Origin: Caloenas nicobarica
Taxonomy: Eukaryota
Direction of reading: 5' to 3'
DNA: 64,000 nt
NCBI RefSeq assembly: GCF_036013445.1
Contig: NC_088282.1
Location: forward strand, 133,631-197,630
The notes under the pieces: generated by a model
What the model saw: only the letters and a program-made list of their open reading frames with translations
Told to the model about the DNA's origin: nothing
The model's database searches: none
In this document: positions 1-64,000 of the stretch, piece by piece
Layout: each line of letters starts with the position of its first letter
How positions within the stretch are numbered: the first letter of the stretch is position 1
Translations under genes and position numbers: made by a program

Positions 1-192
1 CTGGGCATACTGGTGGTGATGGACACCATGTTGATACTGGGGAAACTGGAGATACTGGTGAGCCTGGAGTTGACGCTGGTGCTGAACGTCCTGATGTTAC
101 TGGGGATACTGGGGATACTGGGGGCGGTGGTGACCCCGATGACATCGCGATGACATCACGATGACGTCACCGCCCCGGCCCCTCCCCCGCAG

Positions 193-256
193 GCCCGACC
201 ACCTCAACAGCCACGTCCGGCAGGTCCATTCCACCGAGAGGCCCTTCAAGTGCGAG
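193..256 (+). CDS. MAZ: MAZ zinc-finger exon (window starts inside the gene). Encodes (R)PDHLNSHVRQVHSTERPFKCE.
   Basis: The translation matches human MAZ SRPDHLNSHVRQVHSTERPFKCEK. Acceptor cag at 190-192, donor GTAC at 257. Confidence 0.8.
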
Positions 257-1185
257 GTACCCACCGCCCCACAGATCTGCCCCATAGATCTGCCCCACGG
301 ATCCCGCCCCACGGGCCCCGCTCGCTGCGTCGCTTCGCGCCCCAAACCGACCCAATTCCGGCCCGTTTTCCCCCAAACCGAGTCCCTTCGCTCTTCCCAC
401 ACCCCATAACCCGCCCCACACGTCCCTGACCCACATATCCCAGCCCCATAGATCCCGACCCCCGTTCTGACCCATAGAACTGACCCAGGGATCCTGTTTG
501 CTGCGTCAACTTCCCACCCCAAATGGACCCAATTTTGACCCGTTTTCCCCCAAACCCGAGTCCCTTTTTGCTTCCTGCACCCCATAACCCGCCCCATAGA
601 TCCCGCCCCACAGCTCCTGTCCATAACGTCCAATTCCTGCCCATTTCCCACTGAAAATGGACCCAATTCTGCCCCATTTTCCCCCAAACCCGAGTCCCTT
701 TTCGCTTCCTGCACCCCATAACCCGCCCCATAGATCCCACCCCATAGATCCTGCCCCACATCAACATCTTTCACACCATTTCCTGCCCCAAACCGACCCA
801 ATTCTGACCCATATTCCCCCAAACCCGCGTCCCCTTTCCCTCCCCGCGCCCCATAACCCGCCCCATAGATCCCACCCCACAGCTCCTGTCCGTGTCGTCA
901 AATTCCCTCCCATTCCCCATTGAAAATGGACCCAAATCCGCTCCGTTTTCCCCCAAACCCGCATCCCCTTTCCCTCCCCACGCCCCCCCACATCCCGCCC
1001 CACACCCAGCCCCATAACCCCCCCGCCGCAACCCCGAAACGCGCCCGTTTCTCCCCAAACCGAGCCCGTTTCTCCCCGAAACGCGCCCGTTTCTCCCCAA
1101 ACCGAGCCCGTTCTCGCTCCCCGCCCCCCCCCCCCAGCGCCCAGCCCCATAACCCAGCCCCATAACCTGCCCCCCCCACCCCAGA
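255..1185. repeat. Tandem array of a C-rich unit of about 130 bp (about 6 copies) in a MAZ intron. Motif CCCCATAACCCGCCCCATAGATCCC.
   Basis: Direct repeats of gacccaattctgccccattttcccccaaacccgagtcc...ccccataacccgccccatagatccc can be seen. Confidence 0.8.
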
Positions 1186-1353
1186 CGTGCGAGGCCGCGT
1201 TCGCCACCAAGGACCGGCTGCGGGCGCACGCCGTGCGGCACGAGGAGAAGGTTCCGTGTCACGTCTGCGGGAAACTGCTCAGCGCCGCCTACATCGGGGA
1301 CCACATGAAGGTGCACGGGGCGCCCGGGCACAGCTGCGAGCTCTGCAGCAAAG
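1185..1353 (+). CDS. MAZ: MAZ C2H2 zinc-finger exon. Encodes TCEAAFATKDRLRAHAVRHEEKVPCHVCGKLLSAAYIGDHMKVHGAPGHSCELCSK.
   Basis: Near-identical to human MAZ KCEAAFATKDRLRAHTVRHEEKVPCHVCGKMLSSAYISDHMKVH. Acceptor ccccag at 1184, donor aaag|gtgtgg at 1354. Exon ends in phase 1. Confidence 0.85.
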
Positions 1354-2275
1354 GTGTGGGGCGGGGTGTGGGGCAGGATCTATGGGGCAGGGGGGCGGGC
1401 GGGGGGTGGGTGCAGGGAGGGAAAAGGGGACGCGGGTTTGGGGGAAAACGGGGCGGAATTGGGGCCGGTTTAGGTGGGAATGGGTGGGAATTTGACGACA
1501 CGGACAGGAGGTGTGGGGCGGGATCTATGGGGCGGGTTGTGGGGTGCGGGGAGGGAAAGGGGACGGGGGTTTGGGGGAAAATGGGGCGGAATTGGGTTGG
1601 ATTTGGGCAGGAAATGGTGTGAAAGAGGTTGATGTGGGGCGGGATCTATGGGGCGGGTTATGGGGTGCGGGGAGGGAAAGGGGACGCGGGTTTGGGGAAA
1701 ATGGGGCGGAATTGGGTCCATTTTAGGTGGGAATGGGTGGGAATTTGACGACACGGACAGGAGGTGTGGGGCGGGATCTATGGGCGGGTTGTGGGGTGCG
1801 GGGAGGGAAAGGGGACGGGGGTTTGGGGGAAAATGGGGCGGAATTGGGTTGGATTGGGGCAGGAAATGGTGTGAAAGAGGTTGATGTGGGGCGGGATCTA
1901 TGGGGCGGGTTATGGGGTGCGGGGAGGGAAAGGGGACGCGGGTTTGGGGGAGAAGGGGGCGGAATTGGGTCCGTTTTAGGTGGAAATGGGTGGGAATTTG
2001 ACGACACGGACAGGAGCTGTGGGGTGGGATGTGGGGCGGGATCTGTGGGGCGGGTTATGGGGTGCGGTTGGGGGGGGAAAAGGGGGCGCGAGTTTGGGGG
2101 AAACCGGGGCGGAATTGGGCCAATTTTCATCGGGAAAGGGGCAGCGATTTGACGTCACAGGCAGGATCCATGGGGCGGGATCTATGGGTTGGGATCTATG
2201 GGGCGGGTTGCGGGCGGGATCTGTGGGGCGCAGATCTATGGGGTGACCCCCCCCTCCCCCCATCCCATCCCACCT
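1354..2275. repeat. Tandem array of a G-rich unit of about 245 bp (about 3.5 copies). It is the reverse complement of the 255-1185 family.
   Basis: gggatctatggggcgggttatggggtgcggggagggaaaggggac... is the reverse complement of the C-rich motif in the preceding intron. Confidence 0.8.
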
Positions 2276-2291
2276 CCTCCCCTCCCCCCAG

Positions 2292-2392
2292 GCGGTTCGT
2301 GCCCCCTGGCGCCCCCCGGCGGCCCCTCCCCCGCGGTGCCCGCGCTGCCCCTGGAGGGGGCGCCGGCGCTCGGCCCCACCCAGCCCTGGTGA
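2292..2392 (+). CDS. MAZ: MAZ terminal coding exon. Encodes ...GGSCPLAPPGGPSPAVPALPLEGAPALGPTQPW and the stop codon.
   Basis: In frame with the previous exon and ends ...QPW-stop, as human MAZ ends SQPW. Acceptor ccccccag at 2291, TGA at 2390-2392. Confidence 0.7.
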
Positions 2393-3049: not shown

Positions 3050-4100
3050 CTCAGAGGTCAAAGGTCACTTGGGGTTGTCAATCGCCAGCTGGTTGCTCCC
3101 ACGTGGGGTCACGTGGGGTCACTTGAGGTGTCAATCACTGCTTGGAGGTCAAAGGTCACGCGGGGATGTCAATCACCAGCTCGTCGTCCCCATCCAGGGT
3201 CACGTGGGGTCACAGGGGTCACGTGGGGTCGCTCGGGTTGTCAATCAATGGCCGCTCCGGGGTCACGTGGGGTCACAGGGGTCATGTGGGGTCACAGGGG
3301 TCACTCAGCTTGTCAATCAATCATCGCTCCGGGGTCACATGAGGTCACAGGGATCACATGGGGTCACAAAGGTCATGTGGGGTCACTAGGTTGTCAATCA
3401 ATGGCTGCTCCGGGGTCACGTGGGGTCACTAGGTTGTCAATCAATGGCCGCTCCGGGGTCACGTAGGGTCACAGGGGTCATGTGGGGTCACAGGGGTCAC
3501 TTGGCTTGTCAATCAATCATCACTCCGGGGTCACGTGGGGTCACAGGGGTCACTCCGGTTGTCAATCAATGGCCGCTCCGGGGTCACGTGAGGTCACAGG
3601 GGTCAGTCAGGTTGTCAATCAATCATCACTCCGGGGTCACGTGGGGTCACAGGGGTCACTCCGGTTGTCAATCATCACTCCGGGGTCACGTGGGGTCACA
3701 GGAGTCACTCCGGTTGTCAATCAATGGCCGCTCCGGGGTCACGTGAGGTCACAGGGGTCAGTCAGGTTGTCAATCAATCATCACTCCGGGGTCACGTGGG
3801 GTCACAGGGGTCACTCAGGTTGTCAATCAATGGCGGCTCCGGGGTCACGTGGGGTCACAGGGCTCACTCCGGTTGTCAATCATCACTCCGGGGTCACGTG
3901 GGGTCACAGGGCTCACTCCGGTTGTCAATCATCACTCCGGGGTCACGTGGGGTCACAGGGGTCACTCAGGTTGTCAATCAATGGCGGCTCCGGGGTCACG
4001 TGGGGTCACAGGGCTCACTCCGGTTGTCAATCATCACTCCGGGGTCACGTGGGGTCACAGGGGTCACTCCGGTTGTCAATCAGCGGCCGCTCCGGGGTCA
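3050..4100. repeat. Tandem array of a unit of about 55-58 bp (about 18 copies). Each unit has a CACGTG E-box and three GGGTCA half-sites.
   Basis: Unit ggggtcacgtggggtcacaggggtcactccggttgtcaatcaatggccgctcc. It lies between the convergent MAZ and INO80E 3' ends. Confidence 0.85.
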
Positions 4101-4104: not shown

Positions 4105-4344
4105 TCACTCGGGGATGTCAATCACCAGCTCGTCGTCCCCGTCCAGGGCGTCGTCCCCGCTGCCCTCCCCCCCCTCCCCCTCCCCCTCCCCCCCCCCGTG
4201 GCTCAGGAGCCTCCGGGGGACGGTGCTGGGGACGGGGGGAGGGGCGGGGGGCGGGGCGGGGGGCGGGGCCAGCGCGGGGGGGGGGAGGGGCCCGGCCTGG
4301 CCACGCCCCGGGGGGGGGAAGGGAAACGGGGGGGTGGGGGGGAC
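4105..4344 (-). CDS. INO80E: INO80E terminal exon. Encodes [20 protein letters not shown]...[45 protein letters not shown] and the stop codon.
   Basis: The C-terminus matches human ...[33 protein letters not shown]-stop. Stop codon (reverse complement TGA) at 4105-4107. Acceptor cccccccccag at 4345-4346. Confidence 0.75.
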   Translation of the reverse strand, partial: [79 protein letters not shown]

Positions 4345-4379
4345 CTGGGGGGGGGGGGGAAATAGGGGGGTCGGGGGGG

Positions 4380-4700
4380 GTCACGTGATGCACTGGGACA
4401 CGGCCCCGCCCCCAGCCCCACAAGTGACCCCCCCACCTCCGGACCCACAAGTGACCCGAAGTGACCCCCAAGTGCCCCGTAACTGCCCCCCCAGCCCCAC
4501 AGATTAACACCCCCAGGCCCGCAAGTGCCCCATAAGTGACCCCATGACCCCCCAGCTGCCCCATAAGTGACCTCATGATCCCCCAGCTGCCCCATAAGTG
4601 ATTTCAGCCCCATATATTGACCCCCAAGTGCCCCATAACTGCCCCCGCAACCCCACAAATTAGCCCCCCCAGGCCCCCAGCTGCCCCATAAGTGCCCCCC
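4380..4700. repeat. CCCCATAAGTGACC-type short tandem repeats.
   Basis: ccccataagtgaccccatgaccccccagctgccccataagtga. The same motif family recurs at 5700-6170 and 19400-20300 (there as its reverse complement). Confidence 0.6.
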
Positions 4701-4729
4701 CCCCCCCCCCCCCAGCGCCCCCCACGGAC

Positions 4730-4849
4730 CTGGGGGCGTCGGCTGCTGCGGCTGCGCCGGGCGGGGCCGGGGCGGGGCCGGGGTGGGCGGGGCCCGTCGG
4801 GCGGGGCCAGAATCTCATTGGGGAACGGGCTGAACGGGGGCGTGGCCAC
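4730..4849 (-). CDS. INO80E: INO80E exon 6. Encodes VATPPFSPFPNEILAPPDGPRPPRPRPGPARRSRSSRRPQ.
   Basis: Matches human [34 protein letters not shown]. Acceptor ccccccccag, donor cag|gtccgt. Phase 0 in and out. Confidence 0.6.
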
Positions 4850-4889
4850 CTGGGGGGGGGGGGCGGGGTCAGCTGGGGACACGCCCCCC

Positions 4890-5210
4890 CCCCCCCCGCT
4901 GCGATTGGCTGGAGAGGGTGGGGGGAGCCCAGACCACGCCCCCTCGCTGGGATTGGCTGGAGAGGGTGGGGGAGCTGAGACCACACCCCCTCACTGGGAT
5001 TGGCTGGGGGAAGAGGGGGCGGAGCCGGGGGGGGGGGGGGAGACCACGCCCCCCTCGCTGCCATTGGTTGAGGGTGAAGGGGGTGGAGCCACGCGGGGGG
5101 GGGGCAGACCACGCCCCCTCACTGGGATTGGTTGGGGGTTGGAGGGGGCGGAGTCACAGGGGGACTGGGACACGCCCCCTCGCTGGGATTGGCTGCGGGT
5201 AAAGGGGGCG
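4890..5210. repeat. Tandem repeat of about 62 bp (about 5 copies). Each unit carries gggattggctgg, an inverted CCAAT box.
   Basis: ccacgccccctcgctgggattggctggagagggtgggggagc repeated inside an INO80E intron. Confidence 0.7.
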
Positions 5211-5227
5211 GGGCCGCGGTCACTCAC

Positions 5228-5279
5228 CATATATGGAGCGGGCGGGGCCGGGAAGGCGGGGGGGGAGGGGCTGCGCTTC
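5228..5279 (-). CDS. INO80E: INO80E exon 5. Encodes (R)KRSPSPPAFPAPPAPYM.
   Basis: Matches human KRKRSPPLGGAPSPSS. Acceptor cccccccag, donor atg|gtgagt. Phase 2 in, phase 0 out. Confidence 0.6.
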
Positions 5280-5299
5280 CTGGGGGGGGGAGGAGGCGG

Positions 5300-5600
5300 G
5301 GTCAGGGGGGCGGGGCCAAGGCGGCAGCCATCTTGGAGCCCCGCCCACCTCCCCGGCGGCCATCTTGGCTGCTGGCAGCGGCCATATTGAAGCCTGGCAG
5401 CCATATTGGAGCCCCGCCCACCTCCCTGGCAGCCATATTGGATGCTGGCGGCGGCCATCTTGAAGCCTGGCGGCCATCTTGGAAGCCTTCCCACGACCCT
5501 GGCGGCCATCTTAGAAGCTGGCGGCGGCCATATTGAAGCCTGGCGGCCATCTTGGAGCCCCGCCCACCACCCCGGCGGCCATCTTGGCCCCGCCCCCCAC
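5300..5600. repeat. Tandem array of about 13 consensus YY1 sites (GGCGGCCATCTTGG and GCCATATTGG variants), unit about 20-24 bp.
   Basis: gcggcagccatcttggagccccgcccacctccccggcggccatcttggctgctggcagcggccatattgaagcctggcagccatattggagcc... It lies in INO80E intron 4. Confidence 0.85.
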
Positions 5601-5667
5601 CTCTTGCCGCCGTCGCTGCCTTTGTTCCCGTCCCCGTCGCTGTCGGACGTCGCCGTCGCCTCCGAAT
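5601..5667 (-). CDS. INO80E: INO80E exon 4. Encodes DSEATATSDSDGDGNKGSDGGK(R).
   Basis: Matches human [21 protein letters not shown]. Acceptor ccccag, donor aagag|gtgggg. Phases agree. Confidence 0.65.
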
Positions 5668-5699
5668 CTGGGGCGGGGAGGAGCCGATGGGGACCCATA

Positions 5700-6170
5700 G
5701 CGACCCCCAAGTCCCCCCCCAGCCCCACAAGTGCCTGAAATTGACCCATAATTGCCCCATAACGACTCCCCGGTGCCCCCCAACTTCCCCATGTTGACCC
5801 CTAAGTGCCCCCAAATGACCCATAAATGCCCCAAAGTGACCCATAAATGCCCCACAGCGACCCCCAAGTTCGCCCGCGGCCCCATAACTACCCCACAATG
5901 TCACCCGGCTGCCCCATACTGATCCCTGAACGACCCATAAATGCCCCAAATTGACCTACACCTGCCCCACAGCGACCCCCAAGTTCCCCCCCGCCCCATA
6001 AGTGCCTGAAACTGACCCATAAGTGCCCCATAGAGAGTCCCCAGTGCCCCCCATTGACCGTCAGCCTCCCCACATTGACCCCCAAGTGCCCCCAAATTGA
6101 CCCATAAATGCCCCAAATTGACCCGTAACTGCCCCATAGCGACCCCCAAGTTCCCCCCCAGCCCCATAAG
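5700..6170. repeat. Short tandem repeats of the CCCATAAGTG / CCCATAAATGCCCCAAAGTGAC type.
   Basis: gacccataaatgccccaaagtgacccataaatgccccacagcgacccccaagtt repeated. Confidence 0.6.
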
Positions 6171-6186
6171 TGTCGCTCCCCATTAC

Positions 6187-6239
6187 CCGTCGTCTCCTCG
6201 TCCACGTTCTCATAGAGCAGCAGCCGGTCCAGCAAATAA
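6187..6239 (-). CDS. INO80E: INO80E exon 3. Encodes (S)YLLDRLLLYENVDEETT.
   Basis: Matches human SFLLDRLLQYENVDED. Acceptor ccccag, donor acgg|gtaatg. Confidence 0.75.
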
Positions 6240-7135
6240 CTGGGGGGAGGGGAGCGGCCGTGAGGGACCCAGGCATCCGGGAGGGACCCAGGCGTTCGGG
6301 GGGGACCCAGGCGTCTGGGAGGGACCCAGGAGTTCGGGGAGGGACCCAGGCGTCCGGGAGGGACCCAGGCATCCGGGAGGGACCCAGGCGTCCGGGGGGA
6401 CCCAGGAGTTCGGGAGGGACCCAGGCGTCCGGGAGGGACCCAGGAGTTCGGGGGGAGACCCAGAAGTCCGGGGGGACCCAGGAGTTCAGGAGGGGACCCA
6501 GGAGTTTGGGAGGGGACCCAGGCGTCCGGGAGGGACCCAGGCGTCCAGGGGGACCCAGGAGTTCGGGAGGGACCCAGGCGTCCGGGAGGGACCCAGGAGT
6601 TCGGGGGGAGACCCAGAAGTCCGGGGGGACCCAGGAGTTCAGGAGGGGACCCAGGAGTTTGGGAGGGGACCCAGGCGTCCGGGAGGGACCCAAGAGTTCG
6701 GGGAGGGACCCAGGCGTCCGGGACGGTCCCAGGCGTCCGGGGGGACCCAGGAGTTCGGGAGGGGACCCAGGAGTTCGGGGAGGGACCCAGGCGTCCGGGG
6801 GAGGGACCCAGGAGTGCGGGAGGGACCCAGGAGTGCGGGGAGGGACCCAGGCGTTCGGGGGAGGGACCCAGGAGTGTGGAGGAGGGACCCAGGCGTCCGG
6901 GACGGTCCCAGGCGTCTGGGAGGGGACCCAGGAGTTTGGGAGGGGACCCAAGAGTCCAGGGAGGGACCCAGGAGTGCGGGAGGGACCCAGGAGTGCGGGA
7001 GGGACCCAGGAGTTCGGGGAGGGACCCAGGAGTCCAGGAGGGGACCCAGGCATTCGGGAGGGACCCAGGAGTTCAGGGAGGGACCCAGGAGTCCGGGAGG
7101 GGACCCAGAGGATGGATTTTGGGGCCGTTTTGAGG
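6240..7135. repeat. 20-bp minisatellite GGGACCCAGGCGTCCGGGAG, about 45 copies.
   Basis: A direct tandem array. The same 20-mer family recurs elsewhere in the window in both orientations. Confidence 0.9.
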
Positions 7136-7146
7136 GATTTTGGGAC

Positions 7147-7217
7147 CTTTTGTCGCGCGAAACCTTCAGGAGTTTGCGCTGGGCCCGACGCAGCTCGTCC
7201 TGGAAACATTCCTGCTC
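7147..7217 (-). CDS. INO80E: INO80E exon 2. Encodes [23 protein letters not shown].
   Basis: Matches human [24 protein letters not shown]. Acceptor ttag and donor aaaag|gtccca on the minus strand. Phases agree with the flanking exons. Confidence 0.8.
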
Positions 7218-7299
7218 CTAATCGAGCAAAAACGGGGGATTTGGGGGAAAAACAGGGAAAAACGTAGCTAGAAATACACAGAGACACCCCCAGGAACCC

Positions 7300-9180
7300 C
7301 CAAACCACCAATTTCAGCCCCCAAAAGCCCAATTTTGGTCCAAAACCCCCTAAATTTAAGCCCCTAAAGCCCCAATTTTAGACCCAAAAAATCAATTTCA
7401 GCCCCCAAAACCCCAATTTTGGTCTCCAAAAAATCACAATTTTGGCCCCAAAAAATGCCAGTTTGACTCCCAAAAGACCCAATTTCACCCCCAAAAAGCC
7501 CAATTTCATCCCCCAAATGCCCCACTTACCCCAAATTCCTCCAGAACCCCCAAGTTCCCCCAAATTTACCCCAGAATCCCTCAAATTCACCCCAAATTTC
7601 CCCAAATTCCCCCAATTTACTCCAGAACTCCTAAAATTTACCCCAAATCCCTCCAAATTTACCCCGAATTCCCCCAAATTCTTCCAGAACCCCCCTAATT
7701 TACCCCAGAACCCCCCAAATTCCCCCAGAACCACCAAATTTACCCCAAATTCCCCCAAATTTACCTTAAATTCCCCCTAATTTTACCCCAGAACCCCCAA
7801 ATTCCTCCAGAACCCCCAAATTTACCCCAAATTCCCCCAAATTTACCCCAGAATCCCTCAAATTTACCCCAAATTCATCTCAAATTCCCCCTAATTTACC
7901 CCAGAACCCCCCAAATTCCCCCAGAACCACCAAATTTACCCCAAATTCCCCCAAATTTACCTTAAATTCCCCATAATTTTACCCCAGAACCCCCAAATTC
8001 CTCCAGAACCCCCAAATTTACCCCAAATTCCCCCAAATTTACCCCAGAATCCCTCAAATTTACCCCAAATTCATCTCAAATTCCACCTAATTTACCCCAG
8101 AACCCCCCAAATTCCCCCAGAACCACCAAATTTACCCCAAATTCCCCCAAATTTACCTTAAATTCCCCATAATTTTACCCCAGAACCCCCAAATTCCTCC
8201 AGAACCCCCAAATTTACCCCAAATTCCCCCAAATTTACCCCAGAATCCCTCAAATTTACCCCAAATTCATCTCAAATTCCACCTAATTTACCTCAAATTC
8301 CCCCTAATTTACCCCAGAACCCCGCAAATTCCCCCCAAATTCCCCCAAATTTACCCCAGAACTCCCCAATTTCCCCCCAAATTCTCCAAATTTTTCCCCA
8401 AATTCCTCCAGAACTCCCAAATTTCCCCCACAACCCCCAAATTTCCCCCAGAATCCCTGAAATTAACCCCAGATTTCCCCCAAATTCCCCCCGATTTACC
8501 CCAAATATATCTCAAATTCCCCCCAATTTACCCCAGAACCCCCCAAATTCCCTCGACTTCCTCCAGAACCCCTAAATTTACCCCCAAACCTCCAAATTTA
8601 CCTCAAATCCCCCCACGTTCACCTCAAATTCCCCCTAATTTACCCCAGAACCCCCCAAATTCCCCCCAAATTCCCCCAAATTTACCCCAGAACTCCCCAA
8701 ATTCCCCCCGAATTCTCCAAAATTTCCCCCGAATCCCCCCAATTTACCCCCAAGTCCCCCCAATTTACCCCAATTTCCCCCCAATCTACACCAAATCCCC
8801 CTAATTTAGCTCAAATCCCCCCAAATCTCCCCAATTTCCCCCCCAATTTCCCCCCAATCCCCCCAATTTCCCCCCAATCCCCCCAATCTACCCCAAATCC
8901 CCCCAATTTACCCCCAATTTCCCCCAAATTTCCCCCAAATCCCCCCAATTCACCCCCAATTTCCCCCCAATCTACCCCAAATCCCCCTAATTTACCCCCA
9001 AATCCCCCCAATTTCCCCCAAATCCCCCCAATTTCCCCCCAATTTGCCCCCAGTTTCCCCCAAACCCCCCCCAATCCCCCCAATTTCCCCTAATTTACCT
9101 CAAATCCCCCCAATTTCCCCCAAATTTACCTCAAATCCCCCCAATTTCCCCCAATTTCCCCCCATTCCCCCCCCCCCCCA
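7300..9180. repeat. C-rich short-unit satellite (CCCCAAATTTACCCCAGAA, units 10-20 bp) of about 1.9 kb.
   Basis: aatttaccccaaattcccccaaatttaccccagaa repeated. The bottom strand is G-rich. Confidence 0.85.
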
Positions 9181-52100: not shown

Positions 52101-52116
52101 TGTCCGTGTGTCTCAC

Positions 52117-55060: not shown

Positions 55061-55160
55061 GTCGCCCTCTCGCGTCTCCGGGGGTTTTCTTTTATCTTTT
55101 TTTAATCTTTTTGAGGGAAAAAAGAGGCGAAAACTCCTCAAATCGGCGGCGGAGGAGCCG
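55000..55160 (+). other. SRRM2: Putative SRRM2 non-coding exon 1. The transcription start is uncertain.
   Basis: The donor gagccg|gtgagg lies at 55161, downstream of the promoter module. The next exon's acceptor, ccccccgcag at 58078-58080, is 15 nt before the ATG. Confidence 0.3.
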
Positions 55161-55169
55161 GTGAGGACC

Positions 55170-58095: not shown

Positions 58096-58373
58096 ATGTA
58101 CAATGGGATCGGGCTGGCGACGCCGCGGGGCAGCGGCACCAACGGCTACGTCCAGCGCAACCTCTCGGCCCTGCGGGGCAAACGGGAACCCAGAACCGGC
58201 AGCACCGGGACCGGCAGCACCGGAGACCCCCCCGGGGGGGAGCAGGAGGAGCCGCGCAGGCTGGAGGCCGGGGGGCTGCTCCGCAAACCCAACCCCGACA
58301 TCCTCGACCACCAGCGCAAGAGGAAGGTGGAGCTGAAATGCCTGGAGCTGGCCGAGCTCATGGAGGAACAGGG
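58096..58373 (+). CDS. SRRM2: SRRM2 first coding exon. Encodes [35 protein letters not shown]...LLRKPNPDILDHQRKRKVELKCLELAELMEEQ(G).
   Basis: Matches human SRRM2 [28 protein letters not shown]...RPNPDILDHERKRRVELRCLELEEMMEEQG. ATG at 58096-58098, donor cagg|ggtgagc (GT at 58374). Confidence 0.85.
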
Positions 58374-58379
58374 GTGAGC

Positions 58380-59915
58380 GACCCGAAAACGGGCAGAAAC
58401 GGCCCAAAAATGTGCCCAAACGACCCGAAAATGTGCCCAGACGGCCCAGAAATGTGCCTACGTGGCCCAAAAATGTGCCCAGATGGCCCAGAAATGCACC
58501 CAAACAACCCGAAAATGTGACTAGACGGCCCAAAAACGTGACCAGGTGGCCCAAAAATGCGCCCAAAGAGCCCAAAAATGCGCCCAAAGAGCCCAAAAAT
58601 GTGCCCAGGTGGCCCGAAAATGTGCCTAGATGGCCCAGAAATGTGCCTACGTGGCCCAAAAATGTGACTGGACAGCCCAAAAATGTGCCCAAAGAGCCCA
58701 AAAATGTGCCTAGATGGCCCAGAAATGCACCCAAAGAGCCCAAAAATGTGCCCAGGTGCCCCAAAAAATGTGCCCCCCAAAAATCCCCTAAGTCCCCCCA
58801 AAATCCCCCCATATCCCCCCCCCCCAAAATTATTACATATTCCGAACTTTTCCTGTGTCCCCCAACTTCTGGATCCCCAAAACTCCCCCATACGCCCCCA
58901 AAACCCCTCTAGACCCTTCCAGCCCCCCAAAAATCCCCCCGTTCCCCCCCAAAAATTTTTCCAGCACCCCCCAAAAGCTTCATCTGGATCCTTTTCCTGC
59001 ATCCCTGAACTCTCGCACCCCCAAAACTCCCCCGTGTGCCCCAAAACCCCCTGTAGACCCCTCCAGCCCCCCCAAAATCCCCCCAGCACCCCAAAAATTC
59101 CCCCGGTCCCCCCCACATTCCCCCAACACCCCAAAAATCCCCGAAGTCCCCCCCCAAAATTCCCCCCATATTCTCCAAATAAATTACTATGCGTTCCGAA
59201 CTTCTCCCACGTCCCCAAACTTTTTGGCCCCCAAAACTCCCCCGTGTGTCCCCAAAACCCCCTCTAGACCCCCCCCAGCCCCCCAAAAATCCCCCCAGCA
59301 CCCCAAAAATCCCCCTGGTCCTCCCCAAATTCCCCCAACACCCCCAAATTCCCCCCACATCCCCAAAAACTTCACCTGGATCCTCCAAACTTTTCCTGCA
59401 TCCCCCAACTTCTGCGCCCCCAAAACTCCCCTGTGCGCCCCCAAATCCCCACCCTGCACCCCCAAAACCCCCTCTAGACCCCCCCAGCCCCCCCAAAATC
59501 CCCCCAGCCCCCCCAAACTTCCCCCGGTCCCCCCAAATTCCCTCCAGTCCCCCCAAAATCCCCCCATATTCCCCCCGCACTCTCCAAATAAATTACTACA
59601 AGTTCTGAACTTCTCCCGCGTCCCCAAACTTTTGGGCCCCCAAAACTCCCCCGTGCGCCCCCAAAACGCCCTCTAGACCCCCCCAGCCCCCCAAAAATAT
59701 CTCCCTGGTCCCCCCCAAATTCACCCAACACCCCCAAAAACTCCGCCTGGATCCTCCAAACTTTTCCTGCATCCCCCAACTTCTGCGCCCCCAAAACTCC
59801 CCTGTGCGCCCCCAAAACTCGCCCGTGTGCCCCCAAACCGCCTCCCTGCGCCCCCCAAACCCCCCCAGCCCCCCCAAAAATCCCCCCAGCCCCCCAAAAA
59901 CCCCCTTTTTTCCCC
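58380..59915. repeat. C-rich satellites in SRRM2 intron 2. A 30-bp unit CCCAAAAATGTGCCCAGATGGCCCAGAAATGTGC is followed by a unit of about 190 bp, CCCCAAAACTCCCCCGTGTGCCCCCAAAACCCCCTCTAGACCC.
   Basis: Direct tandem arrays. Confidence 0.85.
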
Positions 59916-59924
59916 CCCTCGCAG

Positions 59925-60023
59925 GTACACGGAGAGCGAAATCCAGGAGAAAGTCTCCACCTTCCGCACGATGCTGCTGGAGCGCGACGTGGCGCTGGCC
60001 GACCCGGCCGACCCCAAACCCGC
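59925..60023 (+). CDS. SRRM2: SRRM2 exon. Encodes (G)YTESEIQEKVSTFRTMLLERDVALADPADPKP(A).
   Basis: Matches human YEEQQIQEKVATFRLMLLEKDVNPGGKEETPGQRPA. Acceptor ctcgcag at 59924, donor ccgc|gtgagt. Confidence 0.8.
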
Positions 60024-60111
60024 GTGAGTTCCCCCCAAAAAACCCGCCCCCCGAACCCCCAAAAATCACTGATTACCGCCCCCTTCTTAACGAGCCGCGT
60101 GCCCTCGTTAG

Positions 60112-60267
60112 CGTGACGGAGACTCATCAGCTGGCGGAAGCTAACGAGAAGAAGAACGAGCGGCTGCGGGCGGCGTTCGGTATCAGCGACGCCTACGTGG
60201 ACGGCAGCTCCTTCGACCCCGCTCGCCGCGCCAAGGAGAACCCCCCGGAGCCCCCCGAGCCCCCCAG
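60112..60267 (+). CDS. SRRM2: SRRM2 exon. Encodes (A)VTETHQLAEANEKKNERLRAAFGISDAYVDGSSFDPARRAKENPPEPPEPP(R).
   Basis: Matches human AVTETHQLAELNEKKNERLRAAFGISDSYVDGSSFDPQRRAREAKQPAPEPPKPY. Acceptor cgttag at 60111, donor cccag|gtacgc. Confidence 0.85.
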
Positions 60268-60269
60268 GT

Positions 60270-61390
60270 ACGCATGGGGGGGGTCCCCAAAACTCCCCTG
60301 GACCCCCCAAAATTGTCCTGACCTCCCCAAAATTGTCCTGGACCCCCCAAAATTGTCCCCAGCCCCCCAAACCCACCGGAGTCCCGTCAAGCTCGTGTTA
60401 GTGTCTCCAACCTCCCTGATCCCCCCAAAACACACCTGAGCTCCCCCCAGAGCCCCCCAGGTACCCACAGGGGGAGATTTGGGGGTACGGGGGGGTCCCC
60501 AAAACCCACCTGACCCCCCTAATATTGTCCTGGACCCCCCAAAATTGTCTCGTGTCCCCCGAATGCCCCAGAGTCCCGTCAAGCTCTTGTTAGTGTCTCC
60601 AACCTCCCTGATCCTCCCAGGGAGGATTTGGGGGTACAGGGAGGTCCCCAAAACTCACCTGAGTCCCCCAAAAACCTTTAAGCCCCCCCAGGTACCTCCC
60701 AGGGCGCATTTAGGGGTACGGGGGGGTCCCCAAAAAGTCCCCCGAGCGCCCCCCAGGTGCCCATTGTGTGTGTGTGTGGGGATTTTGGGGTACAGGGGGG
60801 TCCCCCAAAACTCTTAATCCCCCTCAGGGATATATTGGGGTACAGGGGGGTCCCCATTCCCTCCTAGGGATATATTGGGGTGCGGGGGGGGTCCCCAAAC
60901 CCCCATAGGGATATATTGGGGTATGGGGGGGTCCCCAAACCCCCATAGGGATATATTGGGGTACAGAGGGGTCCCCATTCCTCCATAGGGATATATTGGG
61001 GTGCGGGGGGGTCCCCAAACCTCCATAGGGATATATTGGGGTACGGGGGGGTCCCCATTCCCCCATAGGGATATATTGGGGTACGGGGGGGGTCCCTAAA
61101 CCCCCCTAGGGATATATTGGGGTGCGGGGGGGGTCCCCAAACCTCCATAGGAATATATTGGGGTACAGGGGGGTCCCCAAACCTCCATAGGGATATATTG
61201 GGGTACGGGGGGGGTCCCTAAACCCCCATAGGGATATATTGGGGTGCGGGGGGGGTCCCCATTCCCCCATAGGATATATTGGGGTGCGGGGGGGGTCCCC
61301 ATTCCCCCATAGGGATATATTGGGGTACGGGGGGGGGGGTCCCCATCCCCCCTAGGGATATATTGGGGTGCGGGGGGGTCCCCAAAGCCC
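60270..61390. repeat. CCCCAAAATTGTCCTGGACC repeats of about 90 bp, then 30-bp CCATAGGGATATATTGGGGTACGGGGGGGTCC repeats.
   Basis: Direct tandem arrays in SRRM2 intron 4. Confidence 0.85.
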
Positions 61391-61416
61391 CTGACCCCCA
61401 TGTTTTGCGCCCCCAG

Positions 61417-61494
61417 CGCGGGGCGGGAGGACTCGAGCTCCCGGTCGCCGTCGCCCAAGCAGAAAAAGAAGAAAAAGAAGAAGGATCGGGGCAG
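61417..61494 (+). CDS. SRRM2: SRRM2 exon. Encodes (S)AGREDSSSRSPSPKQKKKKKKKDRG(R).
   Basis: Matches human SLVRESSSSRSPTPKQKKKKKKKDRGR. Acceptor cccccag at 61416, donor ggcag|gtgagg. Confidence 0.8.
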
Positions 61495-61619
61495 GTGAGG
61501 GCGATTCGGGGCCAAAAAGGAGCATTTTGGGGCCGGGGGGGGCGGAAAAAGGGGGTTTTGGGGAGGAAAAGGGGGTTTTGGGGGGTGTTTTGGCCCCATG
61601 GAATCTGTGGGTCCCGCAG

Positions 61620-61673
61620 GTCGGCCAGTCGCTCCGGGGAGAGGAAGAAAAGCTCCAAGAAGAAGAAACACAG
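61620..61673 (+). CDS. SRRM2: SRRM2 exon. Encodes (R)SASRSGERKKSSKKKKH(R).
   Basis: Matches human RSESSSPRRERKKSSKKKKHR. Acceptor cccgcag at 61619, donor cacag|gtagga. Confidence 0.8.
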
Positions 61674-61679
61674 GTAGGA

Positions 61680-61910
61680 TCTGTGGGGCACGATCTATGG
61701 GGCGGGATCTATGGGTCAGGATCCATAGGGCAGGTCTATAGGGTGGGATCTGTGGGTCAGGATCCATAGGGTGGGATCTACGGGGTGGGATCTACGGGTC
61801 AGATTTACAGGCGGGATCTATGGGGCGGGATCTATGGGGCAGGATCTATGGGGCAGGATCTATAGGGCAGATTTCTTAGTGGGATCTATGGGGCGGGATC
61901 TATGGGGCCG
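61680..61910. repeat. GGGATCTATGGGGCG 15-bp repeats.
   Basis: gatctgtggggcacgatctatggggcgggatctatgggtcaggatccatagggcag repeated. The motif is shared with the MAZ and TAOK2 intron arrays. Confidence 0.85.
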
Positions 61911-61937
61911 CCCCTCACCCCCATTTCGCCCCCCCAG

Positions 61938-61970
61938 GTCGGAGTCGGAGGCCAAGAAGCGGAAGCACCG
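61938..61970 (+). CDS. SRRM2: SRRM2 micro-exon. Encodes (R)SESEAKKRKH(R).
   Basis: Matches human SESESKKRKHR. Acceptor cccccccag at 61937, donor accg|gtgagg. Confidence 0.75.
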
Positions 61971-62094
61971 GTGAGGGGGGGGGGGTGTCGGATTTTGGGG
62001 GGATTTGGGGGGATTTGGGGGTCGGTGGTGACGTCACTGCTGACGTCACTGCTGACGTCACCGCTGACCTCCCGCTGACGTCATCTCCCCCCAG

Positions 62095-62145
62095 CTCTCC
62101 CAGCCCCAAGAGCAAACATAAGGCCAAGGAGAAGAAGCGCAAGAG
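62095..62145 (+). CDS. SRRM2: SRRM2 exon. Encodes (R)SPSPKSKHKAKEKKRK(R).
   Basis: Matches human SPTPKSKRKSKDKKRKR. Acceptor ccccccag at 62094, donor aagag|gtgaga. Confidence 0.75.
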
Positions 62146-62149
62146 GTGA

Positions 62150-63250
62150 GACCCCCCACTGTCCCCCCTGTGTCCCCCAATGTCCCCCTGTGTCCCCCCA
62201 ATGTCCTCGTTGTGTCCCCCCCAATGTCCCCCAATGTGTCCCCCCCATGTCCCCCTGTGTCCCCCAATGTCCTCGTTGTGTCCCCCCTGTGTCCCCCCCA
62301 CGTTCCCCCATGTCCCCAGTGCGTCCCCATTATGTCCCCCCGTGTCCCCCGCCATGTCCCCCCATGTGTCCTCTCAGTGTCCCCGTTGTGTCCCCCCATG
62401 GTGTCCCCCAGTGTCCCCATTGTGTCTCCCCCATTGTCCCCCATGTCCCCATTGTGTCCCCCCATTGTGTCCCCCCGTGTCCCCATTATGCCCCCACTGT
62501 GTCCCCCCATGTCCCCATTGTCCCCCCACATTGTGCCCCCTCCATGTCCCCATGGTGTGGCCCCCCTATGTCCCCATTGTGGCCCCCCCCATTGTATGTC
62601 CCATGTCCCCATTGCGTCCCCATTGTCTGTCCCCATTGTGTGTCCCCCCCATGTCCCCATTGTGTGTCCCCCCATGTCCCCATTGCCCCCCACATTGTGT
62701 GTCCCCCCATGTCCCCATTGTCCCCCACATTGTGTCCCCCCCATGTCCCCATGGTGTGTCCCTTCATGTCCCCATTGTGTCCCCATTGTGTCCCCCACTG
62801 TGTCCCCCCATGTCCCCATTGTGGCCCCCCCCATTGTATGTCCCATGTCCCCATTGCGTCCCCATTGTCTGTCCCCATGGTGTGTCCCCCCGTGTCCCCA
62901 TTGCCCCCCACATTGTGTGTCCCCCCGTGTCCCCATGGTGTGTCCCCCCATGTCCCCATGGTGTGTCCCCCCGTGTCCCCATTGCCCCCCACATTGTGTC
63001 CCCCCCATGTCCCCATGGTGTGTCCCCCCCATGGTGTGTCCCCCCCATGGTGTGTCCCCCATGTCCCCATTGTCCCCCCGCATTGTCCCCCTGCATTGTC
63101 CCCCCGCATTGTGTGTCCCCCCACGTCCCCATTGTGTGTCCCCCCACGTCCCCATTGCCCCCCACGTTGTGTCCCCCCACATTGTGTCCCCCCATGTCCC
63201 CATGGTGTGTCCCCCCCATTGTGCCCCCCCATTGTCCCCCATGTCCCCCG
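62150..63250. repeat. C-rich minisatellite of about 24 bp, CCCCATTGTGTCCCCCCATGTC.
   Basis: A direct tandem array in SRRM2 intron 8. It creates the long TVSP-rich pseudo-ORFs. Confidence 0.85.
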
Positions 63251-63259
63251 TGCCCCCCC

Positions 63260-63361
63260 AGGCTCACCGTCCCCGTCCCGCCCCCCAGATCCACCAGCGA
63301 ATCAGCTTCCCAGAAGAGCCGCCGCGAGGACGGCCCCTCCTCCTCAGGCTCCTCCCCCTCC
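63260..63361 (+). CDS. SRRM2: SRRM2 exon. Encodes (R)LTVPVPPPRSTSESASQKSRREDGPSSSGSSPS(R).
   Basis: Matches human SRSTTPAPKSRRAHRSTSADSASSSDTSRSRS. Acceptor cccccccag at 63259, donor cccg|gtaagt. An alternative in-frame acceptor ccccccag sits 27 nt downstream at 63286. Confidence 0.6.
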
Positions 63362-63442
63362 CGGTAAGTCCCGCCCCCCGCCCCCCAACCCCCCCCCGCC
63401 CCCCAGACCCCCCAAAAACCGACCCCCCCGTCCCCCCCGCAG

Positions 63443-63488
63443 GTCCCAGCGCCAGGAGGAGGAGCCGGCGCCGCCCCCCGCACCCCAG
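63443..63488 (+). CDS. SRRM2: SRRM2 small exon. Encodes (R)SQRQEEEPAPPPAPQ.
   Basis: In phase with its neighbours. Acceptor cccgcag at 63442, donor cag|gtgagc at 63489. Confidence 0.5.
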
Positions 63489-63607
63489 GTGAGCGCCGGG
63501 GGGGCCGGGACCACCCCCATCGCCCCCAAAAATCCCCTTTTTTCACCTCATTTCTTCTATCTCTTTTTGGTTTTTTTTTTGTTTTGTTTTGTTTCGTTTT
63601 CCCCCAG

Positions 63608-64000
63608 GGGGAGCCGCAGCCGCAGCCGCAGCCCAACCCCCCCCCGGCGGCCCCGGACCCGCCCGTGAGCCCCGCCCCCCCCGCCGCCCCTCCCCCCACC
63701 ACCGCCGCCCCCTCCCCTCCCCCGCCGCCCCCACCCCCCCCGCCGCCCCCTCCCCCGCCCCCAAAACCCCCACCCCCCCCCGCGACCCCTCCCCCACCCC
63801 CCCCCCAAAACGCTCGCGGGCCGGGGGAGGGGGGGGACGCCGCTCCCCCTCCCCCTCCCCCCCTATATCGCGACGGAACCGCTCGCCCTCCCCCGTATCG
63901 CGACGCAACCGCTCGCCCTCCCCGGTATCGCGACGCAACCGCTCGCCCTCGTCGCGCCGGAACCGCTCGCCCTCCCCGGTATCGCGCCGCAACCGCTCGC
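63608..64000 (+). CDS. SRRM2: Start of the large proline/arginine-rich SRRM2 exon, truncated by the window end. Encodes GEPQPQPQPNPPPAAPDPPVSPAPP...PPYRDATARPPRYRDATARP.
   Basis: The frame stays open from the acceptor cccccag at 63605-63607 to the window end. The proline-rich and YRDATARP-repeat composition fits the giant RS-domain exon of SRRM2. Confidence 0.4.

What the first reader, a model, noticed from the sequence alone, without database searches (positions are those of the whole stretch)
1..64000. A compact avian-like gene block combining human 16p11.2 genes with MFAP4 and SRRM2, in an order unlike human
Seven genes are recognisable from their exons: MAZ(+), INO80E(-), PAGR1(-), TAOK2(+), CDIPT(+), MFAP4(-) and SRRM2(+). 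The first five are 16p11.2 neighbours in human. The human order is MAZ-PRRT2-PAGR1-MVP-CDIPT-SEZ6L2-ASPHD1-KCTD13-TMEM219-TAOK2-HIRIP3-INO80E. Here INO80E and PAGR1 sit between MAZ and TAOK2, and CDIPT follows TAOK2 directly. No exon of PRRT2, MVP, SEZ6L2, ASPHD1, KCTD13, TMEM219 or HIRIP3 is visible. MFAP4 (human 17p11.2) and SRRM2 (human 16p13.3) adjoin. The extreme GC content and repeat load fit the hard-to-assemble bird microchromosome regions where such genes were long reported missing.
Basis: partly seen in the sequence, partly recalled or inferred. Interest (0 to 1): 0.6.

Follow-up and report, generated by a model that had tools for sequence, protein, structure and literature searches.

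The report
Pigeon microchromosome block of seven genes
This window is a repeat-choked stretch of a tiny Nicobar pigeon microchromosome that carries seven real genes in a bird-type order.

Summary
Observation confirmed. All seven genes are present on the stated strands and in the stated order: MAZ(+), INO80E(-), PAGR1(-), TAOK2(+), CDIPT(+), MFAP4(-), SRRM2(+).

NCBI RefSeq proteins of Caloenas nicobarica (PAGR1, CDIPT, TAO2, MFAP4-like, SRRM2) all lie on one 774,814-bp record. The four that were aligned to the window match its exons at about 100%. The window is therefore annotated Nicobar pigeon DNA.

About 75% of the window is tandem repeat and GC is 0.58 overall.

I found no trace of SEZ6L2, HIRIP3 or PRRT2 by tblastn with archosaur sequences. 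No Pfam domain of MVP, KCTD13, ASPHD1 or TMEM219 appeared.

The order is not an assembly accident:
- Band-tailed pigeon has the same PAGR1-TAOK2-CDIPT-MFAP4 run.
- Crane has SEZ6L2-PAGR1-INO80E-MAZ.
- Goose has SRRM2 head-to-head with MFAP4.
- Ostrich and alligator have SEZ6L2-PAGR1-HIRIP3-INO80E.
- Xenopus is human-like (KIF22, PAGR1, MVP).

Part of the "unlike human" order is therefore older than birds.

Hron et al. 2026 describe avian "dot chromosomes" with exactly these traits: gene loss and repeat "stuttering". They place MAZ and MFAP4 on chicken chr38, list KCTD13 as lost in all birds, and name the Nicobar pigeon assembly.

Verdict: real, correctly read, already known in kind. Interest is low.

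The parts
197..1361 (+). 3' part of MAZ. Two zinc-finger exons, 197-268 and 1182-1361. The earlier exons lie upstream of the window, and the last short coding exon was not located.
   Evidence: tblastn of crane and ostrich MAZ gave 84-88% identity. The best database hits are named myc-associated zinc finger protein.
4108..9348 (-). INO80E, complete. Start codon exon 9348-9265. Further exons at 7217-7149 and 6241-6188, and by eye at about 5.7 kb, 5.25 kb and 4.8 kb. Last exon 4377-4108.
   Evidence: Pfam INO80E PF24237, 41.5 bits. tblastn of crane INO80E gave 96% identity on exons 1-2. Hits are named INO80 complex subunit E.
3197..4100 (.). Tandem array directly 3' of the INO80E stop codon. It is built from copies of the last ~20 nt of the coding sequence, an example of 'exon stuttering'.
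   Evidence: TRF periods of 53, 102 and 208 nt. There are 13 copies of TCACTCCGGNNGTCAATCA against 0 expected. The source sequence is at 4105-4128.
11721..14974 (-). PAGR1, complete, three coding exons: 14974-14579, 13152-13060, 11861-11721.
   Evidence: 100% tblastn match to XP_065511389.1, PAGR1 of Caloenas nicobarica. Pfam PAXIP1_C.
14975..20407 (.). Spacer between the divergent PAGR1 and TAOK2 genes. It is 88% tandem repeat, mainly a 21/42-nt array at 15016-16855 and a 10/21/70-nt array at 17023-18904. This is where SEZ6L2 sits in crane, ostrich and alligator.
   Evidence: TRF. SEZ6L2 tblastn was negative with a positive control. Synteny.
20408..33644 (+). TAOK2. Kinase-domain exons from 20408 to 25143, regulatory exon 27965-28186, Ser/acidic exon 29260-29445, and a probable large terminal exon, the 726-codon ORF at 31467-33644.
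   Evidence: 99-100% match to XP_065511397.1, TAO2 of Caloenas nicobarica. PDB TAO2 scores 497.6 bits against 473.4 for TAO3. The terminal ORF is conserved in frame with Patagioenas.
39248..45733 (+). CDIPT, complete, six coding exons.
   Evidence: 97-100% match to XP_065511360.1. Pfam CDP-OH_P_transf.
46447..52177 (-). MFAP4 (RefSeq name 'MFAP4-like'), five coding exons.
   Evidence: Pfam Fibrinogen_C, 183.5 bits. 89-100% identity to Columba livia MFAP4-like. Turtle and mammal MFAP4 are the next best hits. Caloenas XP_065511358.1 is in the same 90% cluster.
54700..55165 (+). Probable SRRM2 promoter and non-coding first exon. It has four ZNF143-type motifs in alternating orientation, with YY1-like and NRF1-like motifs and a GT donor near 55160.
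   Evidence: Motif search gave 4 matches against 0.03 expected. Sequence read. The promoter assignment is an inference from known motif types.
58096..64000 (+). SRRM2 coding exons. The gene runs off the window end inside the Arg/Ser-rich exon.
   Evidence: 100% match to XP_065511380.1. Pfam cwf21. Human SRRM2 chain 5mqf_S matches with E 1.6e-96.

Best explanation
The window is a 64-kb piece of a 774,814-bp Nicobar pigeon (Caloenas nicobarica) microchromosome record. The record is of the 'dot chromosome' type and corresponds to chicken chromosome 38 (vertebrate paralogon 2B, largely human 16p11.2).

It carries seven genuine genes. All appear intact apart from the structurally unusual TAOK2. They are packed into 64 kb, with introns and spacers filled by locally generated tandem repeats.

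The gene order is a lineage-specific arrangement, built in steps:
1. Rearrangements in the reptile/bird lineage placed PAGR1 between SEZ6L2 and HIRIP3-INO80E. This is shown for alligator and ostrich, and partly for a turtle. Xenopus keeps the human-like PAGR1-MVP neighbourhood.
2. Genes were lost or moved in birds. KCTD13 is published as missing in all birds. HIRIP3 is absent between PAGR1 and INO80E in crane and pigeon.
3. In pigeons, SEZ6L2 is also absent from between PAGR1 and TAOK2.
4. MFAP4 and SRRM2 are already on the same chromosome as PAGR1 in a turtle, 0.59 Mb away. In birds they lie next to the block.

Shown: gene identities, order, strands, repeat content, and the arrangements in the other species.

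Inferred: the direction and number of rearrangements. One workable path from the human-like order is inversion of PAGR1..INO80E, re-inversion of SEZ6L2..TAOK2, and relocation of PAGR1. Whether the absent genes were deleted or moved elsewhere is also inferred.
For: Species and annotation:
- Four RefSeq proteins of Caloenas nicobarica on one 774,814-bp record match window exons at about 100%; the MFAP4-like protein on that record was placed only by its 90% cluster.

Gene identities:
- Pfam, source names and PDB.

Same order in an independent chromosome-level assembly:
- In Patagioenas fasciata CM104795.1, PAGR1(-) lies at 408,469-415,456, the TAOK2 model(+) at about 419,559-434,415, CDIPT(+) at 436,658-444,315, and MFAP4(-) from 446,091.

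Other species:
- Crane CM054343.1: Sushi-domain gene, PAGR1, INO80E, MAZ convergent, no HIRIP3.
- Goose CM079404.1: SRRM2 head-to-head with MFAP4-like.
- Ostrich and alligator: SEZ6L2-PAGR1-HIRIP3(-)-INO80E.
- Turtle: PAGR1 then HIRIP3, with MFAP4 on the same chromosome at 1.35 Mb against 0.76 Mb.
- Xenopus: kinesin gene (KIF22-like), PAGR1, MVP.

Repeat content:
- 75% TRF overall, 0.40-0.85 inside genes, 0.70-0.88 between genes.

Literature:
- Hron et al. 2026 (PMC12954441) describe dot-chromosome gene loss and intron/exon 'sequence stuttering'.
- They show MAZ at chr38:339,873-355,391 and MFAP4 at chr38:1,462,727-1,477,796 in chicken.
- They list KCTD13, DOC2A and CORO1A as missing in all birds, and SEZ6L2 as missing in Galliformes and Anseriformes.
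- They name the Nicobar pigeon assembly as having dot-chromosome-like content.
Against: - I could read only 64 kb of the 775-kb record. Relocation of the 'absent' genes elsewhere on it cannot be excluded.
- In Patagioenas, INO80E was not found within 10 kb downstream of PAGR1. The INO80E-PAGR1 adjacency is therefore confirmed only in crane and in this window.
- In chicken, MAZ and MFAP4 are 1.1 Mb apart on chr38, against 45 kb here. The block is not uniform across birds.
- Lovell et al. list a HIRIP3 entry in the passerine P. humilis. HIRIP3 is therefore not lost in all Neoaves.
- The Pfam screen on concatenated pieces missed the MAZ zinc fingers, so its sensitivity for short exons is limited.
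- No lookup located TAOK2 or CDIPT in crane, ostrich or alligator. The rearrangement path is a reconstruction, not an observation.
Confidence: 0.88

Rival explanations
1. The unusual adjacencies are assembly artefacts. Collapse or mis-joining across long tandem arrays deleted the intervening genes and joined unrelated pieces.
For: 75% of the window is tandem repeat. Every gene junction lies in repeat arrays with 70-88% TRF coverage. Such regions are known to be hard to assemble (PMC9516821 title and abstract).
Against: An independent chromosome-level assembly of another pigeon genus has the same PAGR1-TAOK2-CDIPT-MFAP4 order and strands, with a similar 4-5 kb PAGR1-TAOK2 spacer. Crane shares PAGR1-INO80E-MAZ, and goose shares SRRM2/MFAP4.
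Confidence: 0.04
2. The 'missing' neighbours are present in the window but unrecognisable. They would be too diverged or buried inside the repeat arrays.
For: Proteins here evolve very fast. PAGR1 is only 66-82% identical between two pigeon genera. The Pfam screen missed the MAZ zinc-finger exons. 64% of the window, the short-period arrays, was not screened with Pfam.
Against: - SEZ6L2 exons are 87-98% identical between crane, ostrich and alligator, yet give only repeat-like noise here.
- Five conserved HIRIP3 segments give nothing better than E 0.03.
- The PRRT2 CD225 tail from alligator gives no hit.
- No extra Pfam family appears in non-repeat or long-period-repeat DNA.
- The free spacers are 0.7-5.8 kb and mostly arrays of units under 60 nt, too small for MVP or SEZ6L2.
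Confidence: 0.04
3. The bird order is the ancestral tetrapod order and the human order is the derived one.
For: Alligator, ostrich and a turtle share PAGR1 next to HIRIP3 (with INO80E beyond in alligator and ostrich). Bird karyotypes are said to resemble the ancestral vertebrate karyotype (PMC12954441).
Against: Xenopus tropicalis has a kinesin gene, PAGR1 and MVP in the human arrangement. Xenopus locus tags for PAGR1 and MAZ differ by 2, and Phrynosoma tags for PAGR1 and MAZ are consecutive. This is as expected for the human-like MAZ-(PRRT2)-PAGR1 arrangement.
Confidence: 0.08
4. Some of the seven genes, TAOK2 above all, are decaying copies rather than functional genes.
For: The coiled-coil region present in gull TAOK2-like (aa 300-675) cannot be found in the window or in Patagioenas. 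The RefSeq model is only 457 aa and ends in a doubtful exon. Kinase exons are only 58-92% identical between the two pigeons.
Against: All kinase-domain exons are open and match solved TAO2 over residues 7-315 at 497.6 bits. The catalytic motifs [11 protein letters not shown] and APE are visible in the translation. The long terminal ORF is kept open in both pigeons, and its length differs by a multiple of three.
Confidence: 0.12

Closest known systems
Chicken dot chromosome 38 (GGswu T2T assembly; Huang et al. 2023, Hron et al. 2026, PMC12954441)
   Same: - It carries MAZ and MFAP4 together with other 16p11.2-type genes (TUFM, SLC5A2, KAT8).
- It shows gene loss: KCTD13, DOC2A and CORO1A in all birds, and SEZ6L2 in Galliformes and Anseriformes.
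- Its introns are dominated by locally expanded tandem repeats, with examples of exon-derived repeats.
   Different: In chicken, MAZ and MFAP4 are about 1.1 Mb apart. Here they are 45 kb apart. The exact chicken order of INO80E, PAGR1, TAOK2, CDIPT and SRRM2 could not be read with these tools.
Patagioenas fasciata chromosome CM104795.1, 398-454 kb
   Same: PAGR1(-), TAOK2(+), CDIPT(+) and MFAP4(-) lie in the same order and on the same strands. The tandem-repeat families are homologous, and TAOK2 has the same long terminal ORF.
   Different: INO80E was not seen within 10 kb of PAGR1. Protein identities are only 58-99% depending on the gene.
Human 16p11.2 BP4-BP5 interval (PMC7945342)
   Same: MAZ, PAGR1, CDIPT, TAOK2 and INO80E are all members of this interval.
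   Different: - The human order is MAZ-PRRT2-PAGR1-MVP-CDIPT-SEZ6L2-ASPHD1-KCTD13-TMEM219-TAOK2-HIRIP3-INO80E.
- Seven intervening genes are absent here and the order is rearranged.
- MFAP4 is at 17p11.2 and SRRM2 at 16p13.3 in human. These two locations come from my own knowledge and were not checked with a tool.
Alligator mississippiensis CM061338.1, 289-310 kb, and ostrich CM081617.1, 642-663 kb
   Same: PAGR1 lies upstream of INO80E on the same strand. The genes are very compact.
   Different: HIRIP3 lies between PAGR1 and INO80E, and SEZ6L2 lies on the other side of PAGR1. In alligator, INO80E is followed by a 199-aa gene and CLN3, not by MAZ.

Membership tests
Avian dot-chromosome gene block (chicken chr38 / paralogon 2B type) | Gene content shared with chicken chr38 | tested here: met
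   MAZ and MFAP4 are in the window. Both are on chicken chr38 in Hron et al. Fig. S5.
Avian dot-chromosome gene block (chicken chr38 / paralogon 2B type) | Introns dominated by simple or tandem repeats. The chicken dot-chromosome median is 7-93% coverage, against about 0 on other chromosomes. | tested here: met
   TRF coverage is 0.40-0.85 within the seven gene bodies and 0.75 overall. Definition from PMC12954441.
Avian dot-chromosome gene block (chicken chr38 / paralogon 2B type) | Exon-derived repeat copies next to the source exon ('exon stuttering') | tested here: met
   There is one clear case, 13 copies of the INO80E stop-codon end at 3229-4082. A 37-nt copy of a TAOK2 exon start lies at 23121-23157. 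The other 27 exons tested have no copies.
Avian dot-chromosome gene block (chicken chr38 / paralogon 2B type) | Loss of conserved neighbours relative to other tetrapods | tested here: inconclusive
   SEZ6L2, HIRIP3 and PRRT2 are absent from the window. KCTD13 loss in all birds is published. The rest of the pigeon genome could not be searched.
Avian dot-chromosome gene block (chicken chr38 / paralogon 2B type) | Small chromosome size | tested here: met
   The source record is 774,814 bp. Homologous records are 0.55 Mb in crane, 2.1 Mb in Patagioenas, and 4.8 Mb in goose and ostrich. Whether the 775-kb record is a whole chromosome is not known.
Human 16p11.2 BP4-BP5 syntenic block | Shared gene content | tested here: met
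   Five of the twelve genes from MAZ to INO80E are present.
Human 16p11.2 BP4-BP5 syntenic block | Colinear gene order and orientation | tested here: not met
   The window order is MAZ, INO80E, PAGR1, TAOK2, CDIPT. The human order is MAZ, PAGR1, CDIPT, TAOK2, INO80E with seven further genes interspersed.
TAOK2 (as opposed to TAOK1 or TAOK3) | Kinase domain closest to TAO2 | tested here: met
   PDB TAO2 scores 497.6 bits against 473.4 for TAO3. TAO1 is not among the solved sequences returned. The RefSeq name is TAO2. The margin is modest.
TAOK2 (as opposed to TAOK1 or TAOK3) | Genomic neighbourhood of 16p11.2 genes | tested here: met
   The gene is flanked by PAGR1 and CDIPT in the window and in Patagioenas.
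TAOK2 (as opposed to TAOK1 or TAOK3) | Central coiled-coil region | tested here: not met
   Gull TAOK2-like aa 300-675 has no match in the window or in Patagioenas by tblastn or phmmer --max.
MFAP4 | Fibrinogen C-terminal domain with best hits to MFAP4 orthologues | tested here: met
   Fibrinogen_C scores 183.5 bits. The last exon is 90-100% identical to MFAP4 of turtles, mammals and birds.
SRRM2 | N-terminal cwf21 domain followed by Arg/Ser-rich sequence, closest to human SRRM2 | tested here: met
   cwf21 scores 47 bits. Human SRRM2 chain 5mqf_S residues 1-283 match with E 1.6e-96. RS-rich ORFs run from 63.3 kb to the window end.

The most novel reading that the evidence does not exclude
In pigeons, dot-chromosome instability may have gone further than gene loss and intron bloat. 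SEZ6L2 and HIRIP3 would have been lost from this block independently of the Galloanserae losses. Repeat expansion would have entered coding sequence and remodelled TAOK2, a conserved neurodevelopmental kinase. The resulting protein would have a kinase domain, no recognisable coiled coil, and a terminal exon carrying a species-variable, in-frame Pro/Ser-rich tandem repeat. That would be a natural example of 'sequence stuttering' reshaping a protein rather than only its introns.
Probability: 0.25. Interest if true: 0.45.

Novelty: already known. Interest (0 to 1): 0.2.

Why it matters
The window is a clean, checkable example of what an avian dot chromosome looks like at base level. Real, mostly intact genes that were once called 'missing in birds' sit a few kilobases apart. 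They are separated by locally generated tandem arrays, with neighbours deleted or moved.

This finding does not open a new question. The sequence is RefSeq-annotated, and the class of region, its gene losses and its repeat behaviour were described for chicken in 2023-2026.

Its modest added value is comparative:
- PAGR1 lies next to INO80E, or to HIRIP3-INO80E, in alligator, ostrich and crane.
- HIRIP3 is absent there in crane and pigeon.
- SEZ6L2 is absent there in two pigeon genera.

This gives a stepwise picture of erosion of the 16p11.2 homologue.

Tried and rejected
- Exact-protein lookups of the Caloenas proteins P0001 and P0121 and of ostrich MAZ returned 'not on record'. I could not read the pigeon record beyond the window or place MAZ in ostrich.
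- Pfam on concatenated six-frame pieces found six of the seven genes but not the MAZ zinc fingers. It is therefore only a moderate-sensitivity negative screen. An extra screen of long-period repeat DNA found nothing.
- The search for the TAOK2 coiled coil with gull and ruff TAOK2-like proteins found only the Ser/acidic exon.
- The exon-stuttering screen of 29 exons found only two cases.
- A blastn comparison with Patagioenas was dominated by shared satellite families and was not useful for exon finding.
- Rfam at gathering threshold and the tRNA scan found nothing.
- Literature searches for '16p11.2 + chicken + microchromosome' and 'HIRIP3 + TAOK2 + chicken' found no paper on avian synteny of this block.
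- I considered and rejected the idea that the window is a paralogous duplicate block. Every gene's best named hits are the orthologues, and the same block occurs once per species record examined.
- Structure prediction, fold search and the representative-protein search were not used, because sequence identity already settled the gene identities.

Full report
**What the window is**

The window has 58% GC overall, with 2-kb windows ranging from 0.34 to 0.71. Tandem Repeats Finder covers 75.3% of it. Arrays with units shorter than 60 nt make up 64.4%, and a further 10.9% is covered only by longer-period repeats.

I translated the non-repeat DNA in six frames and scanned it against Pfam. Exactly six families appeared:
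- Pkinase and CDP-OH_P_transf on the + strand
- cwf21 on the + strand and Fibrinogen_C on the - strand
- PAXIP1_C and INO80E on the - strand

**Gene identities and species**

Chimeric exon queries against the large protein database returned these best named hits:
- PAGR1 and INO80E
- CDIPT and MAZ
- TAO2, MFAP4 and SRRM2

The top hits for PAGR1, CDIPT, TAO2 and SRRM2 are RefSeq proteins of Caloenas nicobarica. All lie on one 774,814-bp record. Their accessions are XP_065511389.1, XP_065511359.1/60.1, XP_065511397.1 and XP_065511380.1. An MFAP4-like entry, XP_065511358.1, is on the same record.

Local tblastn of these proteins onto the window gives 100% identity over whole exons. The window is therefore Nicobar pigeon DNA that NCBI has already annotated.

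MAZ is cut by the window start. Only its last zinc-finger exons are present, at 197-268 and 1182-1361. SRRM2 runs off the window end.

Solved structures give additional support. The kinase part matches TAO2 (497.6 bits) slightly better than TAO3 (473.4 bits). The SRRM2 N-terminus matches human SRRM2 residues 1-283 with E 1.6e-96.

**The absent neighbours**

I obtained real archosaur sequences for three of the seven 'missing' genes from fetched loci and proteins, then searched the whole unmasked window.

- HIRIP3: five conserved ostrich segments give nothing better than E 0.03. The same segments find HIRIP3 in alligator and turtle.
- SEZ6L2: ORFs from the alligator, ostrich and crane SEZ6L2 regions give only repeat-like noise. 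They match each other at 87-98% identity.
- PRRT2: the CD225 tail, present in two alligator MAZ-PRRT2 read-through models, gives no hit.

For MVP, KCTD13, ASPHD1 and TMEM219 I have only the absence of their Pfam domains, in non-repeat DNA and in long-period repeat DNA. That screen found six of the seven real genes but missed the MAZ zinc fingers, so it is not fully sensitive.

The free spacers are 0.7-5.8 kb and 70-88% tandem repeat. That leaves no room for MVP or SEZ6L2.

**Is the order real, and how old is it?**

| Species and record | Arrangement seen |
|---|---|
| Band-tailed pigeon, CM104795.1 (2.1 Mb) | PAGR1(-), 966-aa TAOK2 model(+), CDIPT(+), MFAP4(-), same order and strands |
| Whooping crane, CM054343.1 (0.55 Mb) | Sushi-domain gene (SEZ6L2), PAGR1, INO80E, then MAZ convergent; nothing between PAGR1 and INO80E |
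| Swan goose, CM079404.1 | SRRM2 head-to-head with MFAP4-like |
| Ostrich and American alligator | SEZ6L2, PAGR1, HIRIP3 on the opposite strand, INO80E |
| Turtle, Pangshura | PAGR1 followed by HIRIP3; MFAP4 on the same chromosome 0.59 Mb away, next to a trypsin-like gene |
| Xenopus tropicalis | Kinesin gene, PAGR1, MVP, as in human |

Four conclusions follow:
- The adjacencies in the window are not an assembly accident.
- PAGR1 beside HIRIP3-INO80E and SEZ6L2 is at least archosaurian.
- HIRIP3 is missing from that position in crane and pigeon.
- SEZ6L2 is missing from that position in two pigeon genera, although crane and ostrich keep it.

Lovell et al. list a HIRIP3 entry for a passerine. 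I therefore do not claim loss across Neoaves.

One path from the human-like order to the bird order is inversion of PAGR1..INO80E, re-inversion of SEZ6L2..TAOK2, and relocation of PAGR1, followed by deletions. This is my inference and was not tested.

**What is already known**

Hron et al. 2026 (PMC12954441) make these points:
- Avian 'dot chromosomes' have lost 29% of ohnologs.
- Genes retained there show massive local expansion of short sequences in introns, sometimes copied from the adjacent exon. They call this 'sequence stuttering'.
- Dot-chromosome-like content can be seen in NCBI annotations of several birds, including the Nicobar pigeon.

Their supplement adds detail:
- Chicken MAZ is at chr38:339,873-355,391 and MFAP4 at chr38:1,462,727-1,477,796.
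- KCTD13, DOC2A and CORO1A (paralogon 2B, chr38) are missing in all birds.
- SEZ6L2 is missing in Galliformes and Anseriformes but not in Neoaves.

Yin et al. 2019 list TAOK2, CDIPT, INO80E and SRRM2 among formerly 'missing' avian genes that were later recovered from transcripts.

I found no paper that describes the gene order of this block in birds. That is a small gap inside a described phenomenon.

**Side observations**

- INO80E exon stuttering. The array at 3197-4100, just past the INO80E stop codon, is made of copies of the last ~20 nt of the coding sequence. This is a textbook case of exon stuttering.
- TAOK2 structure. A 726-codon ORF (31467-33644) links a conserved segment to a hydrophobic C-terminal tail through an in-frame Pro/Ser-rich tandem repeat. 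Patagioenas has the same ORF, 357 nt (119 codons) shorter between the two conserved anchors. No coiled-coil region like that of gull TAOK2-like can be found in either pigeon.
- SRRM2 promoter. The only large unique non-coding piece, 54.3-55.2 kb, carries four ZNF143-type motifs and looks like the SRRM2 promoter.
- Uneven divergence. Protein identity between the two pigeon genera runs from 96-99% for MFAP4 to 66-82% for PAGR1.

**Verdict**

The block is an already annotated piece of a Nicobar pigeon dot-type microchromosome, and its peculiarities fit a published description. Interest is low. The most novel reading still open is pigeon-specific further erosion together with coding-level remodelling of TAOK2.

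Noticed in passing
window 3197-4128: The tandem array directly after the INO80E stop codon is built from copies of the last ~20 nt of the INO80E coding sequence. There are 13 copies of TCACTCCGGNNGTCAATCA against 0 expected. This is an instance of 'exon stuttering' as defined by Hron et al. 2026.
   Followed up: yes
window 31467-33644 (+); L003 5195-7036: A 726-codon ORF joins a conserved TAOK2 segment to a hydrophobic C-terminal tail through an in-frame Pro/Ser-rich tandem repeat with periods of 12, 21, 45 and 120 nt. Patagioenas has the matching 614-codon ORF, and the spacing between the conserved anchors differs by 357 nt, a multiple of three. It is probably a large terminal coding exon carrying a variable repeat.
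   Followed up: partly
window 25-34 kb; L003 1-10000: The coiled-coil region of gull TAOK2-like (P0301 aa 300-675) has no detectable counterpart in either pigeon. The RefSeq model XP_065511397.1 (457 aa) ends in a doubtful exon at 35445-35495, inside a repeat.
   Followed up: partly
window 54700-55165: Four ZNF143-type motifs (ACTACAACTCCCAGCGTGC) lie in alternating orientation. Three have an AAGATGGCGG (YY1-like) motif close by. A GCGCATGCGC (NRF1-like) motif and a GT donor near 55160 follow. This is probably the SRRM2 promoter and a non-coding first exon.
   Followed up: partly
window exons compared with L002/L003 (Patagioenas): Divergence between two pigeon genera is very uneven. MFAP4 exons are 91-99% identical (96-99% when Columba livia MFAP4-like is aligned to the window), TAOK2 kinase exons 58-92%, CDIPT 76-87% and PAGR1 66-82%.
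   Followed up: no
window 1-1361 and 4108-9348: No Caloenas nicobarica MAZ or INO80E protein appeared among the database hits, although both genes look intact here. They may be unannotated or poorly modelled in RefSeq.
   Followed up: no
window 25179-26704: A 31-nt unit is repeated 49 times at 95% identity inside a TAOK2 intron. This is far more homogeneous than the other arrays and suggests very recent expansion.
   Followed up: no
window 12000-14000: An AT-rich island (GC 0.34) lies inside the PAGR1 introns. It is mostly free of tandem repeats and contrasts with the surrounding DNA of over 60% GC.
   Followed up: no
window 6258-7108, 24400-25045, 50413-51056; L002 and L003, several places: One 19-20-nt repeat family (CCGGGAGGGACCCAGGAGT and variants) occurs in introns of INO80E, TAOK2 and MFAP4 in the window, and at several places in the two Patagioenas loci. 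Not all arrays are therefore purely local in origin.
   Followed up: no
L006 (alligator) 2311-20894; proteins P0129 and P0133: The alligator block is as compact as the bird one: SEZ6L2, PAGR1, HIRIP3, INO80E, a 199-aa gene and CLN3 within 19 kb. Two alligator MAZ models read through into a CD225 (PRRT2-like) tail, which implies MAZ-PRRT2 adjacency there.
   Followed up: partly
L003 20166-21689 (Patagioenas MFAP4 intron): A fragment of the last MFAP4 exon (aa 177-194) recurs at least three times in the upstream intron of Patagioenas. This is exon stuttering. No such copies were found in the Caloenas window.
   Followed up: partly
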